A stretch of 64,000 nt of DNA from Escherichia coli. GTDB lineage: Bacteria; Pseudomonadota; Gammaproteobacteria; Enterobacterales; Enterobacteriaceae. Both the position numbers and the translations under genes were made by a program. Numbering within the stretch: the stretch's first letter is position 1; each line of letters opens with the position of its first letter. Shown piece by piece: positions 3,073 through 33,929 of the stretch. The stretch lies in the NCBI RefSeq assembly GCF_024700885.2, contig NZ_CP117016.1, one strand, 5' to 3'. Below the pieces are notes generated by a model. The model had not been told where the DNA came from. It saw only the letters and a program-made list of their open reading frames with translations, and did no database searches.

Positions 3073-3463
3073 CGTCTTTTCTCCCCGGAATTAAGTCGCG
3101 TGGATTATCGGAGCGGTGATAGAGCCATATTCCAATACGCACTGCTACAATCGCTGACACGAATGCGCCAGCAGAGAAGACAACCCCTTTCTCGAAAGAA
3201 TCCTGCGTAATGGTGGGGATTAGACTGGCTATGCCTATAAGAATTGATGCTGTTGGTTTGTAAAAGAGAAGACCACAAAGAAAGCTGAGTATCGACAAGA
3301 GTACACGACGACGAACAGGATACTCTACAGCAGAGGTAACAAAAATTACCGAACCAGAGAGTGAACCCAATGCAACTTCAGGTGGAACACCAGCAAGTAC
3401 CGATACAAGCGAACACGCACTAAGATATTGATTTAAAGAAAAACTTGTAAATTGCAATGACAT
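3059..3463 (-). CDS. multi-pass membrane protein of the lysis cassette (holin/antiholin-like)
   Basis: Four hydrophobic segments; overlaps the holin start. The ORF-track start 3484 is TTG; ATG 3463 is preceded by GGTGA and was preferred. Confidence 0.45.
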   Translation of the reverse strand: MSLQFTSFSLNQYLSACSLVSVLAGVPPEVALGSLSGSVIFVTSAVEYPVRRRVLLSILSFLCGLLFYKPTASILIGIASLIPTITQDSFEKGVVFSAGAFVSAIVAVRIGIWLYHRSDNPRDLIPGRKDDGNS

Positions 3464-3643
3464 AAAAGTCACCATTTTTATCAATCAAACACAAATTCAA
3501 TTCATGAATTCACCGCCTCAATTAAACCATATTTGGTTTGCTCTTGCCTAGTGTCATTATTATTTATATAGTGACATACCAACTTTCAAATTATAATTTA
3601 TATATTTTAGGACCAAACCCAATACATTTTAAAAGGTGTAACA

Positions 3644-4768
3644 ATGGAATCTAATGCACTAAAAAAAGCACGACTATTTATAAATGACATAAAATATTGT
3701 GTTGAAAACTTTAATATCGATTCAACTTTATATACCGCTTTCAAGCCAAGTGATATTGGTGTTAAAGGAGATGAAAGCAATACAATATATGTTGCTGACG
3801 GTAAGCTTCCGGAAAAACTGATAATTGCTTTTGGAGAAAAGGCAAAAGACAGTAAAATATTTATTGGAAAAAATGTAAAATGCAGGGGATCGAGAATTGT
3901 AATAACTCACGGTGAAAGCCTTTGTTACATCGGAAATAACTCACAACTAAATAATGTAACTATGCATATATGGTGCAAATGGGATTTTGTAGTGGTTGGA
4001 GAAGGTGTATCAGTTACCTCAACAAGTAATTGGACTACTGGAATAAACCCTGGCAATCCTTGTAACGGCATTATTATTGGTGATCACTGCCTTATGAGCC
4101 AAGAAATATCTATTAGACCTGCAGATGGACACCAAATTATCGAACTCACCACGCGAAAAGTAGTCAACGCTGCAACATCACCTATTATAATCGAACCATA
4201 TTGCTGGATCGGACAGCGCACAGCAATACTAAAAAATGTAAGAATTGGTGCATGCTCCATCGTTTCACTTGGTGCTGTAGTTACAAAATCATGTAAAAAA
4301 TTCAGCGCGCTAAGTGGCGTACCAGCAAAAGCAAGATGCATTGAAGGAAAAATGTGGCTAAGAAACAATGGGGAAGAAGCCAAGAGAATAATGCTTATGT
4401 ATGAAAAAAGATTTGCAGGCACAGCAGCACAGCAGCACAGCAGCACAGCAGCACAGCAGCACAGCAGCACAGCAGCACAGCAGCACAGCAGCACAGCAGC
4501 ACAGCAGCACAGCAGCACAGCAGCACAGCAGCACAGCAGCACAGCAGCACAGCAGCACAGCAGCACAGCAGCACAGCAGCACAGCAGCACAGCAGCACAG
4601 CAGCACAGCAGCACAGCAGCACAGCAGCACAGCAGCACAGCAGCACAGCAGCACAGCAGCACAGCAGCACAGCAGCACAGCAGCACAGCAGCACAGCAGC
4701 ACAGCAGCACAGCAGCACAGCAGCACAGCAGCACAGCAGCACAGCAGCACAGCAGCACAGTGATATAA
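3644..4768 (+). CDS. hexapeptide-repeat (left-handed beta-helix) acetyltransferase with a C-terminal (AAQQHSST)x14 tail
   Basis: LbH signature runs (IIIGDHCLMSQEISI; IIIEPYCWIGQRTAILKNVRIGACSIVSLGAVV). AGGTG RBS. AT-rich, and 7 of 11 Arg codons are AGA. Opposite strand to all neighbours. Sits where, as I recall, related phages carry serotype-conversion genes. Confidence 0.8.
   Translation: MESNALKKARLFINDIKYCVENFNIDSTLYTAFKPSDIGVKGDESNTIYVADGKLPEKLIIAFGEKAKDSKIFIGKNVKCRGSRIVITHGESLCYIGNNSQLNNVTMHIWCKWDFVVVGEGVSVTSTSNWTTGINPGNPCNGIIIGDHCLMSQEISIRPADGHQIIELTTRKVVNAATSPIIIEPYCWIGQRTAILKNVRIGACSIVSLGAVVTKSCKKFSALSGVPAKARCIEGKMWLRNNGEEAKRIMLMYEKRFAGTAAQQHSSTAAQQHSSTAAQQHSSTAAQQHSSTAAQQHSSTAAQQHSSTAAQQHSSTAAQQHSSTAAQQHSSTAAQQHSSTAAQQHSSTAAQQHSSTAAQQHSSTAAQQHSSTVI
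4421..4760. repeat. perfect tandem repeat, ACAGCAGC x 42.5 (340 bp)
   Basis: Read directly: every 8-nt unit from 4421 to 4756 is identical, plus a partial acag at 4757-4760. Confidence 0.98.
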
Positions 4769-4776
4769 TTATAATA

Positions 4777-4797
4777 ATGGCCGTAATGCGCGGCCAT
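4777..4797. terminator. hairpin between the convergent acetyltransferase and tailspike genes
   Basis: ATGGCCG-taatgcg-CGGCCAT in an AT-rich context. No clean U-run on either side. Confidence 0.4.
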
Positions 4798-4818
4798 TAC
4801 ATATTATTCATTATAGCA

Positions 4819-7800
4819 TTAACTTATTAGATCCGCTATTTTCTTTTCTTGATATGCCATCCTTATTATTTCAAATTCATCCATACGCATCATGTAAATA
4901 GATCTTGTCAATACCAAATTTCCATGTTTATCTTCTTTAATTTCATCTGCACCTTCTATTAATTTAATAATCCCAAATTCATTAACTGGAATTGGACAAG
5001 ACTCAATATCAATAGGATAAAAATCACCAGATTCGTTTTCTCTTACCAAAACACTGGTTTCTTCATACGTAATAAGACCATACTTCTTCCAATCAAGACC
5101 AGCTTTTGTAATTGCATCCTTAACTTGCTGCGCTACAACTCCAAAATGATATCTGGCATGTTCACTTCCTTTTCGTAATATTTCATCCTTCATCTTCCAC
5201 ATTTGAAATTTTACACTACCCACGGCTTCAATAAGTTCAGTCGGTATATCCGAGAATTCATCTTTGTAATTAACATCTGAAACAACAGTGACAGCATTCT
5301 TGCTATATATGTTATTCCAGTATGCTGTCGTTGTACCATTATTAACTGTTCCTATCTGCCCTGTGGGAGCAAAATAAGGATTATCATTAACTGGATTAGC
5401 TATCTCGACAAGAACTTGAGTACCGCCAAAGCTCCCGCCAGGGAACATACGAAACCTGTTTGGTAAGCGATAGTCATTAGAACCATAAGCATTCCAGCCA
5501 GCCCCATTTTCTACAGTACCACGACACCTAAATTCAACAACTTCTTGTATCTGCGGTGTTACATCATATCCACCACGTATAGACCAGTACTTATTATTGT
5601 CAGATTCTCTGCGGGAATCATGAACACGAAAAGCACCATTACTAGCATACTGAATGGCTTTTTTATATTCTGAAGTATTTTCTGAATACCCCCCCAATAT
5701 CCAGTTCTCTCCTAATTTAAAGGAAACATCAAAAGCAGAACTTATAGAAGAAAGTGGTGAGTTATTAACACGAGTTGTCAAGGCGGAATTCAATGGTAGT
5801 TCATTAGCAACCCCACGCGATTGTGAAATAAGAAATATCTGTTTTCCTCGTTTCGAATACACTCCATCGCTGTACTTTTTATCATTCGAGTATTCCCCAC
5901 CACTAACTTTATTTGTTATCGCCCACATTCTAAATCCATCGGGATCATCCGGAGCAATACCAGAAGCAGTAGAAAAAGCGGAATAATTCTTTCCTTTGTA
6001 AGTTATAATAGATGCTCCAGAATCCCAATTATCCATAGTTAGAATAATAAGGTCTCCTTCATACATATCTATACCTTCAGGTTCAAATGAATGGGGGGTC
6101 CCATACTTTGGATTATCCATAAGATTTTTGTATCCATAAAGAGAACGAGCCCCCTCAAATGAAAATTCAGCAAGAATATTACCAGAATAATCAAACTTCT
6201 GAATAATATGCAACATGAACGGATGTGTATATCCCCTTAATATATAGATGTACTTACCATCACTGGCAACATCTTGAATAACATGAGTATCAGTTCCGCG
6301 CTGCGGATGTGGAATCCTGAAATAATACAATGGTCTTGCGTCCAAACTATTGTCAAGGGATTCTACGTGTATCCTGCTGTAAACAAATACATACCAGGCA
6401 TCATCATCTGCTGTGCTATCAGTTGCAACAAGAACAACATACCTTCCATCTGAAGATACACACGGGGTTGCTGAATTATAATTCTGATAAGGATGACCAG
6501 AACCAGAATATCCAAAAAGCTGATAAGTAATCACATCAGATTCAGATGTGCTGCTCCCTTTCCAAATTAATTTTGAATAACCTTTTCCTCCATCATTTCC
6601 TCGATATGTAGGCTGGGTAACCATTTGGGTATAAATAAAAAGGTCATCATCAATAACTATCGTAGATATTCCCTGATGGTTATTTAATATTGGTGCAGTG
6701 TAAGTAGTATTTTGCACTACTGAACCATCATCAGAAAACGAGTATTCAACCAGCCTGCGCTTCTCTAAAGCAGCTGCTGTTCCTGTACCAACCCCTGGAC
6801 CATTCGCCGTAAATCGTACACCAATATTATTTTCAGCAGCCCCTATAGTTGTAAAATCAGTTGAACCTATACTTACTATTTCATATTCAATTCCGGTTAT
6901 GAAGTCACCAGCTGATGTTACTTTAGAGTTGAAGTTTCCACTACCTTCAGCACTGCCAACAACCGTTTGTAAAATAAATAATTTTTTACCATTATAATTC
7001 GCATAAGCACACCCTTGACTTGTAGCCTCACCATTTGGAAAAACTTGGGACTCACCAAAACCCATAAATGCTTCCATTAAATGGCGTTGCACCAATGTAT
7101 TACTGATATTATTACGAAGAGAAAGTAGATGACCAGTTTTGGAAAGAATCATCCCTTCCCCTGTCATTTTGCTTACATCTACTTTCAACGTATCAACAAG
7201 ATATACTCCAGGTGGAACATAAGCATTTTCAGGAGCCAGAATAAAAGAATTCGTATCATCAGTTATACCATCTCCAACAGCAGCATAATCTTTCACACTT
7301 ACTGTATCACGCATCTTATCCTGGAACGTTCTGTATACAGCTCCAGCACCATACTGGATAAACCATCCGAAACCACCGACAACACCAGCAATTGCAGCAT
7401 CCACATACTTACGCATTGAACGATTATTTACAGCGTCCTGCTCAAGTGATGGATCTGCAAGGTTAGAAATTTTGTTTTGCTTTGCATCGTAATATTTTGC
7501 AAGCAGCGAGGGCTTCATCAATGCACGTCTGAACCACCCAAAACATCGCTGGATCAGCATCGTCAGGTAGTCGAATGCATCCTCATGAACTTCGGGGAAA
7601 AATTTTCCCTGATTGCGAAGATCAGTCTCCTGCACCACATCAAGCACACGCTCTATCGTAATTCGCCAGCCAGCAGCAAGCGGCGACGGAAGAACCACTT
7701 CACCGCCACTATAAGTGCCCGCTCCAGTTACCTTATAACCGGTATCAAGCACCAATTCTGTTACGTTCCCGTTCAGATCAGACACCTGAACAACCAGGTC

Positions 7801-7893
7801 GGATTTTTTGAAAATACGGAAGGTATACGGAAATGATGTCGTAACTCCGTTACCGGTGTATTCGTTGTGGTCAACTTCGGTTGAGACCGTCAT
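4819..7893 (-). CDS. tailspike / receptor-binding depolymerase with C-terminal intramolecular-chaperone (peptidase S74-like) domain
   Basis: 1024 aa. The N-terminus MTVSTEVDHNEYTGNGVTTSFPYTFRIFKKSDLVVQV matches the conserved particle-binding domain I recall for epsilon15/phiV10 tailspikes. The C-terminal 153 aa begin SDVNYKDEF, the S74 auto-cleavage pattern. Confidence 0.85.
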   Translation of the reverse strand: MTVSTEVDHNEYTGNGVTTSFPYTFRIFKKSDLVVQVSDLNGNVTELVLDTGYKVTGAGTYSGGEVVLPSPLAAGWRITIERVLDVVQETDLRNQGKFFPEVHEDAFDYLTMLIQRCFGWFRRALMKPSLLAKYYDAKQNKISNLADPSLEQDAVNNRSMRKYVDAAIAGVVGGFGWFIQYGAGAVYRTFQDKMRDTVSVKDYAAVGDGITDDTNSFILAPENAYVPPGVYLVDTLKVDVSKMTGEGMILSKTGHLLSLRNNISNTLVQRHLMEAFMGFGESQVFPNGEATSQGCAYANYNGKKLFILQTVVGSAEGSGNFNSKVTSAGDFITGIEYEIVSIGSTDFTTIGAAENNIGVRFTANGPGVGTGTAAALEKRRLVEYSFSDDGSVVQNTTYTAPILNNHQGISTIVIDDDLFIYTQMVTQPTYRGNDGGKGYSKLIWKGSSTSESDVITYQLFGYSGSGHPYQNYNSATPCVSSDGRYVVLVATDSTADDDAWYVFVYSRIHVESLDNSLDARPLYYFRIPHPQRGTDTHVIQDVASDGKYIYILRGYTHPFMLHIIQKFDYSGNILAEFSFEGARSLYGYKNLMDNPKYGTPHSFEPEGIDMYEGDLIILTMDNWDSGASIITYKGKNYSAFSTASGIAPDDPDGFRMWAITNKVSGGEYSNDKKYSDGVYSKRGKQIFLISQSRGVANELPLNSALTTRVNNSPLSSISSAFDVSFKLGENWILGGYSENTSEYKKAIQYASNGAFRVHDSRRESDNNKYWSIRGGYDVTPQIQEVVEFRCRGTVENGAGWNAYGSNDYRLPNRFRMFPGGSFGGTQVLVEIANPVNDNPYFAPTGQIGTVNNGTTTAYWNNIYSKNAVTVVSDVNYKDEFSDIPTELIEAVGSVKFQMWKMKDEILRKGSEHARYHFGVVAQQVKDAITKAGLDWKKYGLITYEETSVLVRENESGDFYPIDIESCPIPVNEFGIIKLIEGADEIKEDKHGNLVLTRSIYMMRMDEFEIIRMAYQEKKIADLIS

Positions 7894-33117: not shown

Positions 33118-33929
33118 AAGAAATCCTCCCATGCTTCAGGGCTGTTCCAGTGCGGAACGTTGTTATCAGGTAATGTTGATTGCTTCTGTCTGCTAATCTG
33201 CAGCCGCCTTGCCAGCTTCTGCTCCCACTGTGCCTGATGGTATGCCTTACCCTCAGCCATCCAGTAAATTCTGAACTCTGCAAGTTCCTGTGCCGTTGGC
33301 AGACTGTCCAGGTAGATCCCCTGCAATGAGCTTTTCCGAAGAAAGTCATCTGATGGCTGCCATTGTTCATGCATGACAAATTTTCCTAATTGCCCTGGTC
33401 CACCAGGAGGAACAAAGTTATTCATCACGGCGTTGTTTGCTCCGGGGTCATGAGGCACAGAATCCCCGCTTTTTGTCCTGCTCTCCCTCTCTTGGTTAAA
33501 TGACTGGTTATATGACTGGTTCTGGATCCCGTTTTTGGGATCATTCAACATCCCGTTTTTGGGATCATTCAACATCCCGTTTTTGGGTATATTCCCGTTT
33601 TCGGGAACATTACCGTTTTCGGGTTCATTACGTCCTTCTAGGTTGCCTTTAATGTTCCCTTTTTTGGTTATATTAAGAGAGAAAACCCGCACTCTTTTCG
33701 TCGCTCCCTTTCTCTCTCCGGTATCTGAAATAAGCCCCATTTTCATGAGCGATATAAGCCCGGCCTGCACGGTTTTTTTATTCAGGCAAGTGTCTTTAAC
33801 GAGGCGTTCTATGCTGGGGTAGCAGAGGTTATATTCATCGGCTCTGTCAGCCATCGAGAGCAGTATGAGCTTTAATGACGAGCTACCTGGATCTGTCTCC
33901 CAGGCCCAATCTGTTGCATGTCTGCTCAT
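33114..33929 (-). CDS. lambda O-like replication initiator (N-terminal winged-HTH), contains the origin iterons
   Basis: 271 aa. N-terminal DNA-binding-like region and an internal NG-rich repeat encoded by the iterons. Immediately upstream of the P-like gene. Confidence 0.7.
   Translation of the reverse strand: MSRHATDWAWETDPGSSSLKLILLSMADRADEYNLCYPSIERLVKDTCLNKKTVQAGLISLMKMGLISDTGERKGATKRVRVFSLNITKKGNIKGNLEGRNEPENGNVPENGNIPKNGMLNDPKNGMLNDPKNGIQNQSYNQSFNQERESRTKSGDSVPHDPGANNAVMNNFVPPGGPGQLGKFVMHEQWQPSDDFLRKSSLQGIYLDSLPTAQELAEFRIYWMAEGKAYHQAQWEQKLARRLQISRQKQSTLPDNNVPHWNSPEAWEDFL
33528..33623. repeat. origin iterons: five copies of (C/A)CCGTTTT(T/C)GGG spaced 24, 24, 18, 18 bp
   Basis: Cores at 33528, 33552, 33576, 33594 and 33612, inside the O-like gene as in ori-lambda. 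Confidence 0.7.

What the first reader, a model, noticed from the sequence alone, without database searches (positions are those of the whole stretch)
4401..4830. The repeat is frame-neutral: all three frames encode the same octapeptide but exit into three different C-termini
All three + frames are open across the tract and read as circular permutations of AAQQHSST; the ORF track shows this for 3644-4768 and 4401-4763. Adding or losing units therefore never truncates the protein inside the tract. It only selects the exit. The current frame ends ...SSTVI with its stop at 4766-4768. The second frame ends ...AAQ with its stop at 4761-4763. The third frame ends ...QQHS followed by DIIIIMAVMRGHYILFIIALTY with its stop at 4828-4830. 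That third exit is a 23-aa, largely hydrophobic extension that reads through the 4777-4797 hairpin and 12 bp into the tailspike 3' end. Unit number mod 3 could thus toggle between a soluble enzyme and a hydrophobic-tailed, possibly membrane-associated one, while absolute unit number sets linker length. This would be a phase-variation logic different from classical on/off switching.
Basis: seen in the sequence. Interest (0 to 1): 0.7.

Follow-up and report, generated by a model that had tools for sequence, protein, structure and literature searches.

The report
Unstable repeat tail on capsule acetyltransferase
A perfect 8-base repeat at the very end of a prophage gene for a capsule-acetylating enzyme changes length between near-identical E. 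coli strains and so switches the protein between three different tail ends; the enzyme is also a strong candidate for the unidentified gene that distinguishes capsule types K18 and K22.

Summary
Window 4419-4760 is a perfect octanucleotide repeat (GCACAGCA x42.75) at the 3' end of an acetyltransferase gene, and the three exits are as described. "Same peptide in all three frames" is arithmetic, true for any repeat unit whose length is not divisible by 3. Natural alleles occupy all three exits. The window and strain MLI114 have identical flanks but differ by one unit, which moves the gene from exit A to exit B. The tract lies after the last conserved helix, is predicted disordered, and is absent from all homologues and from the commonest E. 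coli allele. The exits are accidental readings of the terminator region. Exit B has no extension in one lineage and 46-62 aa in others. The exit C stop lies beyond a conserved terminator hairpin. The soluble/membrane toggle is therefore untested and weakly supported, although the exit C tail is genuinely hydrophobic. The enzyme's closest solved relative is NeuO. It sits in the lysogenic-conversion slot of a phiV10-like prophage. In complete E. coli genomes it occurs only in strains with the K18_K22 capsule locus. I read it as a 3'-end variant of the NeuO/CUS-3 theme and the likely missing K18 O-acetyltransferase.

The parts
3544..3572 (+). Promoter-like site (TTGCCT-17-TATAGT) upstream of the acetyltransferase gene. 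This is a weak consensus match only.
3644..4768 (+). Acetyltransferase CDS as it stands in the window (374 aa, exit A). It is a left-handed beta-helix (hexapeptide-repeat) O-acetyltransferase of the NeuO/OatWY type, with 36.5% GC against about 50% for the phage backbone.
3644..4418 (+). Conserved catalytic core (aa 1-258). H163 and W188 align with the NeuO catalytic His147/Trp171 and are invariant in 43 homologues. The last conserved helix, aa 244-258, is encoded at 4373-4417.
4419..4760 (+). Perfect octanucleotide VNTR, GCACAGCA x42.75. It encodes a (AAQQHSST)n tail that is predicted disordered (pLDDT below 55).
4761..4763 (+). Exit B stop (TGA). It is present only in the lineage with GTGATATAA after the tract. 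The other lineage has GCGAAATAA and no stop here.
4766..4768 (+). Exit A stop (TAA). This is the ancestral stop codon, shared with the short non-repeat alleles (...SSTAK*).
4762..4830 (+). Exit C extension: 22 codons (DIIIIMAVMRGHYILFIIALTY) plus TAG. It reads through the terminator hairpin. Its stop is the antisense of a tailspike Leu codon.
4775..4799 (.). Hairpin between the convergent genes, terminator-like on the + strand and followed by CATATTATTC. The RNA fold is -20.4 kcal/mol with z = -3.1. The stem is identical in both lineages and only the loop differs.
4819..7893 (-). Convergent tailspike (1024 aa). It has a phiV10-type N-terminal adaptor and a central region 25.6% identical to the Bacillus phage GA1 gene 12 appendage. 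The C-terminus is a Peptidase_S74 chaperone domain.

Best explanation
What it is. The gene at 3644-4768 is a lysogenic-conversion gene of a phiV10-like prophage. It encodes a cytoplasmic NeuO/OatWY-type O-acetyltransferase. The enzyme most likely O-acetylates the host's ribosyl-ribitol-phosphate group 2 capsule, converting the K22 backbone into K18. Its probable role is to alter the receptor and antigenicity for the lysogen.

How the repeat works. Its 3' end carries a hypermutable octanucleotide VNTR. The VNTR probably grew from a CAG-rich proto-repeat (...GCAGACACAGCAGACAGCAGCACAGCG...) in the non-conserved C-terminal tail. Slipped-strand mispairing adds or removes 8-bp units, and each unit rotates the reading frame by 2. 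The tract lies after the last conserved helix, so catalysis is never truncated. Only the length of a disordered AAQQHSST tail and the choice among three ends change.

Nature of the exits. The three ends are accidental readings of the intergenic terminator region:
- Exit A uses the ancestral TAA.
- Exit B uses a lineage-specific TGA, or else gives a 46- or 62-aa read-through.
- Exit C gives a 22-aa hydrophobic read-through of the terminator hairpin.

Shown: the anatomy, the hypervariability, the natural use of all exits, the NeuO relationship, the conversion slot and the exclusive K18_K22 association.

Inferred: the substrate. I also infer that the tail and exit variation is tolerated and has at most graded effects on enzyme level or activity. 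On this view it is not a designed soluble/membrane switch.
For: Tract and exits.

Hypermutability:
- The window and MLI114 have 0 mismatches over 3314 + 3100 nt of flanks and a 100.0% identical 24.9-kb prophage body. They carry 42.75 and 43.75 units.
- Five loci share an identical 3.1-kb downstream sequence. They carry 42.75, 52.75, 43.75 and 16.75 units, plus one interrupted tract of 16.5 + 13.75.

All exits occur in nature.

Dispensable position:
- Forty-two homologues of 255-325 aa end 5-20 variable residues (about 65 in one) after the conserved ...YExRFA. None has the repeat.
- The commonest E. coli allele (267 aa, listed in 150 index blocks) has no tract.
- AlphaFold gives a confident core and a tract with pLDDT below 55.
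- C-terminal frameshifts are known to be under reduced constraint (PMC3315296).

Exits accidental: (hairpin stem conserved; exit C codons mostly non-synonymous; the TGA is lineage-specific).

Enzyme identity:
- The best PDB sequence hit is NeuO 3JQY (E = 2.8e-18). The best Foldseek hits are NeuO, then OatWY.
- The NeuO catalytic His and Trp are conserved.

Conversion slot: phiV10 carries oac in the same place and orientation.

Capsule link:
- Homologues in Aeromonas, Pantoea and one other assembly lie inside kps-like loci with a TagF-like polymerase and a CDP-ribitol synthase.
- MLI114 has a kps region 2 with such a polymerase and synthase but no acetyltransferase.
- All 10 records with this gene (6 strains) are among the 18 records (14 strains) of 5426 genomes that have this region 2. 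None of the 113 genomes with the 88% variant carries it (hypergeometric 8.5e-17).
- The two variants differ by 81.9 / 98.9 / 97.1% aa. The published K18_K22 versus K100 values are 82.1 / 98.9 / 97.1%.
- The literature states that K18 is acetylated K22, that the loci are identical, and that the acetyltransferase is probably outside the locus and unknown (PMC13171606).
Against: - No expression, activity or localisation data exist.
- The K18 and K22 reference genomes could not be queried. Which of the two kps variants is K18_K22 rests on relative frequency and on ST131 strains being typed K100. Ecol_448 being ST131 is my own recollection.
- The association could be inflated by shared ancestry among carriers.
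- The same acetyltransferase is paired with two tailspikes whose central domains are unrelated. A simple 'one capsule, one tailspike' picture does not explain this.
- Under strict neutrality it is a notable coincidence that two prophage-borne NeuO-type genes in E. coli independently acquired long non-triplet repeats.
- The exit C tail is more hydrophobic than chance readily gives.
- Exact unit counts in single assemblies may contain errors.
Confidence: 0.55

Rival explanations
1. First reader's model. Unit number mod 3 is a three-way switch that toggles the enzyme between a soluble form (exits A and B) and a membrane-anchored form (exit C), with the repeat acting as an adjustable linker.
For: - The exit C tail is strongly hydrophobic. 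The best 19-residue Kyte-Doolittle mean is 2.32, and 2.38 in the second lineage, where R is replaced by S.
- Only 0.4-1.7% of comparable AT-rich 66-mers are both open and this hydrophobic.
- Exit C alleles exist in nature in at least three versions: SW070919, P0081 and P0076.
- Capsule synthesis takes place at the inner membrane, so tethering could matter (inference).
Against: - The tail is the translation of a conserved terminator hairpin and an AT-rich spacer.
- It shows 4 non-synonymous against 2 synonymous codon differences between lineages, with an invariant hairpin stem.
- R-G-H interrupts the hydrophobic run. The summed insertion energy is about 0 kcal/mol, using a scale recalled from memory.
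- Its stop codon lies beyond the predicted termination point and is fixed by a tailspike codon.
- Exit B is not a constant 'soluble' state, because it adds 46-62 aa in other lineages.
- No homologue has a hydrophobic tail.
Confidence: 0.1
2. 3'-end ON/low switch. Exits that read past the terminator are exit C everywhere and exit B where the TGA is missing. These yield non-stop or junk-tailed products. The products are tagged by tmRNA or degraded through their non-polar C-termini. Frame therefore sets enzyme abundance: a high/low phase variation implemented at the 3' end.
For: - A terminator-like hairpin at 4775-4799 lies between the A/B stops and the exit C stop at 4828-4830.
- The stem is conserved between lineages.
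- A TGA arose in one lineage and caps exit B immediately after the tract. This could reflect selection against read-through.
- tmRNA rescue of non-stop mRNAs and degradation of proteins with non-polar C-termini are established in E. coli (own knowledge).
Against: - Terminator efficiency on the + strand is unknown. The U-tract is poor (CAUAUUAUUC).
- A translating ribosome can suppress hairpin formation.
- Read-through alleles are frequent in nature: exit B-long is the commonest class among the expanded alleles listed. That argues against strong counter-selection.
Confidence: 0.15
3. NeuO-like rheostat. The number of AAQQHSST octapeptides tunes catalytic efficiency or acceptor binding. Tract length rather than frame would be the selected variable, producing graded, non-stoichiometric capsule acetylation.
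For: - In NeuO, catalytic efficiency rises linearly with the number of disordered RLKTQDS heptads (PMC3046976).
- The tail here is likewise predicted disordered and ranges from about 2 to 53 units.
- K-serotype modifications are described as non-stoichiometric (PMC13171606).
Against: - The NeuO heptad carries two positive charges, proposed to bind the polyanionic acceptor. AAQQHSST is uncharged apart from His.
- The tail is C-terminal rather than N-terminal.
- One allele has a stop inside the tract and leaves 110 nt of repeat untranslated.
- The commonest allele has no tract.
Confidence: 0.15
4. Assembly artefact. The differences in unit number, and hence in exit class, reflect errors of long-read assembly or polishing rather than biology.
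For: - The window and MLI114 (assembly version 2) are otherwise identical and differ by a single unit.
- Several short-read proteins are flagged partial at the tract.
Against: - The tract is present in at least seven independent assemblies, with lengths from 16.75 to 52.75 units. This range is far larger than plausible error for an 8-bp unit.
- Short alleles with complete, distinct tails in all three frames come from many contigs.
Confidence: 0.05

Closest known systems
NeuO of prophage CUS-3 (E. coli K1 polysialic acid O-acetyltransferase; 'mobile contingency locus')
   Same: - It is the closest solved relative by sequence and by fold, with the catalytic His and Trp conserved.
- It is prophage-borne, lies next to the tailspike gene and acts on a group 2 capsule.
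- It carries a long perfect repeat with a non-triplet unit. That repeat encodes a disordered peptide repeat which reads the same in all three frames.
- Copy number is highly variable (2-93 in NeuO; about 2-53 here).
   Different: - Identity is only about 20-36%.
- NeuO has a 7-bp unit placed 2 nt after the start codon. Two of its three frames stop within 3 and 18 codons, giving a true ON/OFF switch. Here the 8-bp unit follows the catalytic domain, so no frame inactivates by truncation.
- The prophage type differs: P22-like CUS-3 against a phiV10-like element.
- The likely substrate differs: polysialic acid against ribosyl-ribitol phosphate.
oac of phage phiV10 (O157 O-antigen O-acetyltransferase, superinfection immunity)
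   Same: - It occupies the same genomic slot, between the tail fibre gene and the holin-like gene, convergent with the tail fibre.
- It lies in a 97.8%-identical phage backbone.
- It has the same inferred role of modifying the phage's own receptor polysaccharide.
   Different: - phiV10 Oac is annotated as a 338-aa O-acetyltransferase. It gave no match to this gene in either the DNA or the protein search of the phage collection. That it belongs to the integral-membrane acyltransferase-3 family is my own knowledge.
- It has no repeat tract.
Classical SSR contingency loci with three expression states (e.g. Haemophilus influenzae lic1 CAAT repeats; own knowledge)
   Same: A non-triplet repeat inside an ORF is altered by slipped-strand mispairing, and unit number mod 3 gives three distinct outcomes.
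   Different: Those repeats sit at the 5' end, and their outcomes are strong, weak or no translation. Here the repeat is 3'-terminal, and the outcomes are three C-termini on an intact enzyme.
Helicobacter pylori FutA/FutB C-terminal heptad repeats ('enzymatic ruler', Nilsson et al. 2006, cited in PMC2806470)
   Same: A variable number of peptide repeats lies C-terminal to the catalytic domain of a surface-glycan-modifying enzyme. Repeat number is linked to variation in activity.
   Different: Those are 21-bp in-frame repeats, so changes in number do not shift the frame. On/off switching is handled by separate poly-C tracts.

Membership tests
NeuO/OatWY-type capsule O-acetyltransferases (left-handed beta-helix family) | Left-handed beta-helix fold built from hexapeptide repeats | tested here: met
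   The Pfam Hexapep match is weak. The AlphaFold core is confident. Foldseek top hits are NeuO 3JQY (E = 2e-10) and OatWY 2WLG.
NeuO/OatWY-type capsule O-acetyltransferases (left-handed beta-helix family) | Catalytic His and Trp (NeuO His147/Trp171 in 3JQY numbering) | tested here: met
   They align to H163 and W188. Both are invariant in 43 homologues. The residues are named in PMC3046976.
NeuO/OatWY-type capsule O-acetyltransferases (left-handed beta-helix family) | Specificity for polysialic acid | not testable with these tools
   Genomic context instead points to a ribitol-phosphate capsule.
NeuO mobile contingency locus (CUS-3) | 5' heptanucleotide VNTR that gives ON only when copy number is a multiple of 3 | tested here: not met
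   The repeat here is an octanucleotide at the 3' end. All three frames keep aa 1-262 intact.
NeuO mobile contingency locus (CUS-3) | Prophage-encoded, next to the tailspike gene, modifying the host capsule | tested here: met
   Adjacency and prophage location are shown. Capsule modification is inferred from the association.
SSR-mediated phase-variable (contingency) gene | Intragenic repeat with a unit not divisible by 3, and hypervariable copy number among near-identical backgrounds | tested here: met
SSR-mediated phase-variable (contingency) gene | Reversible ON/OFF switching of the gene product | tested here: not met
   No frame truncates the catalytic domain. Whether some exits lower protein level was not testable.
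Tail-anchored membrane protein (exit C form) | A single C-terminal hydrophobic helix of about 19 or more residues | tested here: inconclusive
   The 19-residue Kyte-Doolittle mean of 2.3-2.4 passes the classical 1.6 threshold. However, the run is split by R-G-H (S-G-H in the second lineage). The summed insertion energy is about +0.15 and -1.2 kcal/mol on a scale recalled from memory.
Tail-anchored membrane protein (exit C form) | Demonstrated membrane localisation | not testable with these tools
   Needs cell fractionation.
Intrinsic (rho-independent) terminator | GC-rich hairpin followed by a T-run at the end of a gene | tested here: met
   There is a pattern match at 4775-4799 on the + strand. 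The fold is -20.4 kcal/mol with z = -3.1. The stem is conserved between lineages. The T-run is imperfect, and function is not shown.
Determinant of E. coli K18 versus K22 (capsule O-acetyltransferase outside kps) | Located outside the kps cluster and restricted to strains with the K18_K22 cluster | tested here: met
   All 10 carrier records fall among the 18 K18_K22-type records of 5426 genomes. None of the 113 K100-type genomes carries the gene.
Determinant of E. coli K18 versus K22 (capsule O-acetyltransferase outside kps) | Present and intact in K18 reference strains, absent or inactive in the K22 reference strain | not testable with these tools
   GCA_977946865, GCA_977946875 and GCA_977947955 are not in the searchable collections.

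The most novel reading that the evidence does not exclude
The 3' octanucleotide VNTR is a genuine three-state contingency switch on the K18 capsule O-acetyltransferase. Frame selects a normal enzyme, a junk-extended enzyme, or a hydrophobic-tailed enzyme that is membrane-tethered or degraded. Tract length fine-tunes activity. Together these set the degree of capsule O-acetylation in a lysogen population. This would account for the unexplained K22 / K18a / K18ab serological forms, in the way the NeuO VNTR accounts for K1 form variation.
Probability: 0.15. Interest if true: 0.8.

Novelty: new variant of a known kind. Interest (0 to 1): 0.6.

Why it matters
1. A 2026 typing study states that K18 and K22 have identical capsule loci and differ by an acetylation whose gene is unknown and probably lies elsewhere. 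This prophage gene is a specific, immediately checkable candidate. If confirmed, it would let genome-based typing separate the two serotypes.
2. It would be a second, independent case in E. coli of a prophage pairing a capsule-directed tailspike with a NeuO-type acetyltransferase that carries a long non-triplet repeat. That suggests a recurrent evolutionary route rather than a one-off.
3. The repeat is 3'-terminal, and all three exits exist in nature. The locus is therefore a clean natural test of whether SSR variation can do more than switch genes on and off.

Tried and rejected
- Megablast of 3400-5000 against 50,697 phage records gave no match.
- A pattern scan of one genome per species for the tract's left junction gave 0 hits.
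- An apparent C-terminal repeat in Yersinia massiliensis proved to be a tandem fusion of two acetyltransferase domains with no SSR.
- I tested the idea that the tract forms unusually stable single-strand hairpins that promote slippage. Both strands fold no better than shuffles.
- Homologues in other genera were tested for phiV10-like neighbours. None was found; they lie in capsule loci instead.
- The exact 374-aa window protein is not on record.
- The carrier assemblies were not found in the held, truncated part of the kTYPr supplement.
- Polymerase length does not separate K18_K22 from K100, since both are 1107 aa.
- A PDB sequence search of the tailspike matched only the N-terminal adaptor and the C-terminal chaperone, not the central enzymatic part.
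- A chi-square test on exit classes of listed alleles (A 2, B 9, C 3; p = 0.046) is not interpretable. The alleles are neither independent nor evenly sampled.
- Literature searches found no description of this octanucleotide locus or of a K18 acetyltransferase.


Full report
**1. The observation**

Window 4419-4760 is a perfect tandem repeat of GCACAGCA: 342 bp, 42.75 units, 100% matches. It is the only repeat of this kind in the 64-kb window. It forms the 3' end of an ORF at 3644-4768 on the + strand (374 aa). That ORF is convergent with a 1024-aa tailspike ORF at 4819-7893 on the - strand.

All three + frames are open across the tract and read as permutations of AAQQHSST.
- Exit A, the current frame, ends SSTVI with TAA at 4766-4768.
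- Exit B ends AAQ with TGA at 4761-4763.
- Exit C ends QQHS-DIIIIMAVMRGHYILFIIALTY with TAG at 4828-4830. It runs through a hairpin at 4775-4799 and 12 bp into the tailspike ORF.

The extension is 22 aa, or 23 if the boundary Ser is counted.

One caveat concerns the headline. "The same peptide in all three frames" holds automatically for any repeat unit whose length is not divisible by 3. In 5000 of 5000 random 8-mers the three frames had the same open/closed status, and 65% were open. The NeuO heptanucleotide tract likewise reads RLKTQDS in all three frames. What is particular here is the position of the tract, not its frame-neutrality.

**2. Natural alleles**

Ten complete E. coli records, representing six strains, carry the locus. 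Their tracts and exits are:

| Strain | Units | Exit |
|---|---|---|
| window | 42.75 | A |
| MLI114 | 43.75 | B |
| E100341 | 52.75 | B |
| AST205 | 16.75 | B |
| SW070919 | 50.75 | C (annotated as 416 aa) |
| PAR | 22.9 | B, with a 62-aa read-through |
| EC0026B | about 1.6, imperfect | protein ends GTADSSTAK |

The 90%-identity protein cluster has 125 members. The listed tails include:
- exit A (P0078);
- exit B capped by TGA (P0073);
- exit B read-through of 46 or 62 aa (P0079, P0001, P0080, P0082);
- exit C in two sequence versions (P0081, P0076).

All three classes are found.

The tract mutates far faster than its surroundings:
- The window and MLI114 show 0 mismatches over 3314 + 3100 nt of flanks. 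Their 24.9-kb prophage body is 100.0% identical, and the next-best genome is 97.6% identical. Yet they differ by one unit and therefore by exit.
- Five loci with an identical 3.1-kb downstream sequence carry five different tracts.
- One of these, an IMG/VR contig, has an interruption (CACTGTGATAAG). It puts a stop inside the tract and leaves 110 nt of repeat untranslated.

Exact counts from single assemblies should be treated as provisional.

**3. Where the tract sits in the protein**

Forty-two homologues from other taxa (255-325 aa) all end 5-20 non-conserved residues, about 65 in one case, after the conserved motif ...GKMWLRN..EAK.I...Y..RFA. None has the repeat. The commonest E. coli allele is 267 aa and ends ...EKRFADTADSSTAK. 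It is listed in 150 index blocks and also lacks the tract.

AlphaFold2 with this alignment gives a confident core. The last helix is at aa 244-258, and pLDDT is below 55 from aa 263 onward. The tract is therefore an expansion inside a dispensable, disordered C-terminal tail. It probably grew from a CAG-rich proto-repeat still visible in the short alleles. This is the position where frameshifts are expected to be least constrained (PMC3315296).

**4. The exits**

Two sequence lineages of the 70 nt after the tract differ at 7 positions.
- In the exit C frame, these give 4 non-synonymous and 2 synonymous codon changes.
- The 10-bp hairpin stem is identical in both lineages, and only its loop differs.
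- The exit B TGA exists only in the window lineage (CAGTGA against CAGCGA). Elsewhere exit B runs 46-62 codons antisense into the tailspike gene.
- Exit A uses the ancestral TAA in both lineages.
- The exit C TAG is the antisense of a tailspike Leu codon.

The hairpin scores as a terminator on the + strand and folds at -20.4 kcal/mol with z = -3.1. The exit C stop lies about 20 nt beyond the likely transcript end. Exit C messages may therefore be non-stop.

Its best 19-residue Kyte-Doolittle mean is 2.3-2.4. Only 0.4-1.7% of comparable AT-rich 66-mers are open and this hydrophobic. However, the run is split by R-G-H and is borderline on an insertion-energy scale that I recalled from memory. 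I conclude that the exits are by-products of the terminator region. Exit C may have consequences, namely anchoring, degradation or tmRNA tagging, but none is demonstrated.

**5. What the gene is**

The core's best solved relative is NeuO, the K1 polysialic acid O-acetyltransferase of prophage CUS-3.
- By sequence, 3JQY scores E = 2.8e-18.
- By fold, Foldseek ranks NeuO first and OatWY second.
- The NeuO catalytic residues His147 and Trp171 (PMC3046976) align to H163 and W188. Both are invariant in the family alignment.

The prophage backbone is phiV10-like, at 97.8% identity. In phiV10, the slot between the tail fibre gene and the holin-like gene holds oac in the same convergent orientation. 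That gene is annotated as acetylating the host O-antigen for superinfection immunity. The gene here is AT-rich, with 36.5% GC against about 50% for the backbone. It is absent from all 50,697 phage records at the DNA level.

**6. Likely substrate (found in passing)**

Homologues in Aeromonas caviae, Pantoea anthophila and another assembly lie inside kps-like capsule loci. These loci contain TagF-like polyol-phosphate polymerases, a CDP-ribitol-synthase-like gene, KpsC/S-like genes and a KpsD-like gene.

MLI114 has a group 2 kps locus next to yghD. Its region 2 encodes three proteins and no acetyltransferase:
- a 1107-aa CDP-glycerol glycerophosphotransferase-family protein;
- a cytidylyltransferase/SDR protein;
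- a hypothetical protein.

Megablast of that region 2 finds 18 records at 99% identity or more and 113 at about 88%. All 10 records with the acetyltransferase are among the 18, and none is among the 113. For 6 independent strains among 14, the hypergeometric probability is 8.5e-17. Phylogeny is not controlled.

The three proteins differ between the two groups by 81.9, 98.9 and 97.1%. These are essentially the published K18_K22 versus K100 values of 82.1, 98.9 and 97.1%. K100 is much the commoner type in that study's tables and is the serotype reported for ST131. The 18-record group is therefore K18_K22.

That study states the following (PMC13171606):
- K18 is the acetylated form of the K22 backbone.
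- The clusters are 100% identical and contain no acetyltransferase.
- The K18a/K18ab distinction is unexplained.

I found no paper that identifies the gene.

The tailspike's central region is 25.6% identical (E = 5e-65) to the gene 12 appendage of Bacillus phage GA1. The phi29 counterpart of that protein degrades wall teichoic acid (Myers et al. 2015, cited in PMC6116005). This fits a polyol-phosphate capsule target. A second tailspike of 923 aa with an unrelated central domain is also found next to the same acetyltransferase, which I cannot explain.

**7. Mechanism and rivals**

I commit to the following mechanism. A hypermutable 3' VNTR, changed by slipped-strand mispairing, generates length and exit polymorphism in the dispensable tail of a prophage-borne capsule O-acetyltransferase. 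The catalytic domain is never lost. The phenotypic effect of tail and exit is most likely small or graded.

The rivals are:
- a 3'-end high/low switch through non-stop or junk-tailed products (0.15);
- a NeuO-like length rheostat (0.15);
- assembly error (0.05).

These are not mutually exclusive and need the experiments listed under next steps.

**8. Comparison and novelty**

The locus works like the NeuO/CUS-3 mobile contingency locus in most respects. Both are prophage-borne, adjacent to a tailspike gene, encode a NeuO-type enzyme and carry a long non-triplet repeat encoding a disordered peptide.

It fails the defining NeuO feature of a 5' repeat giving ON only at multiples of three. It also fails the ON/OFF criterion of classical phase variation. 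I therefore class it as a new variant of a known kind.

Its interest lies less in the proposed membrane toggle than in two points. It offers a concrete candidate for the missing K18/K22 determinant. It is also a second, independently evolved repeat-bearing capsule acetyltransferase on an E. coli prophage.

Noticed in passing
window 3644-4768; L056 (MLI114 816291-832038): Every complete E. coli genome with this acetyltransferase has the K18_K22-type kps region 2, which lacks an acetyltransferase of its own. None of the 113 K100-type genomes has the gene. It may be the unidentified K18 versus K22 determinant (PMC13171606).
   Followed up: partly
window 4819-7893 (-): The tailspike central region (aa 258-966) is 25.6% identical (E = 5e-65) to the gene 12 neck appendage of Bacillus phage GA1. 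The phi29 counterpart degrades teichoic acid, which suggests a depolymerase for a polyol-phosphate capsule. The PDB sequence search matched only the N-terminal adaptor and the C-terminal chaperone.
   Followed up: partly
L005 4315-7086, L006 4154-6925, L058, L060: The same acetyltransferase is paired with a second tailspike type of 923 aa. It shares only the N-terminal 209 aa (95%) and a weak C-terminal chaperone match (31%) with the 1024-aa type. The central domains are unrelated, although both types occur in K18_K22-type strains.
   Followed up: partly
L049 1778-2027 (IMG/VR UViG_2585427789_000028): The tract is interrupted by CACTGTGATAAG, which resembles the tract's own 3' boundary. This creates a stop (protein 303 aa, ...STAAL*) and leaves 13.75 units untranslated. 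It may result from unequal recombination or from an assembly error.
   Followed up: partly
L004 (AST205) and L049: These are defective prophages. The tail and head genes are deleted, so the tailspike abuts the replication genes. The lysis cassette, acetyltransferase and tailspike are retained.
   Followed up: no
L002 7022-7665 (SW070919): An IS3-family element lies next to a shortened (825-aa) tailspike gene in the one complete genome that is in exit C.
   Followed up: no
L009 5953-7614 (Yersinia massiliensis): A 553-aa protein is made of two tandem copies of this acetyltransferase domain (54% and 43% identical to the window core). This is a natural domain duplication with a linker of about 40 aa.
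   Followed up: partly
window 33493-33631: There is a cluster of short tandem repeats (12-nt x2.4, 24-nt x2.6 perfect, 18-nt x3.1) inside or next to the replication-gene region of the prophage. They look iteron-like and recur in L049.
   Followed up: no
L053 5091-5996 (Pantoea anthophila capsule locus): A 301-aa gene directly upstream of the acetyltransferase homologue has a faint hit to Phage_RBD_prop. The window tailspike weakly hits the same Pfam family.
   Followed up: no
L054-L056 (MLI114 810-950 kb): The carrier strain, which is identical to the window, has an enteroaggregative-type island next to the kps locus. The island carries pic, the aai type VI secretion system and a second type VI secretion system.
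   Followed up: no
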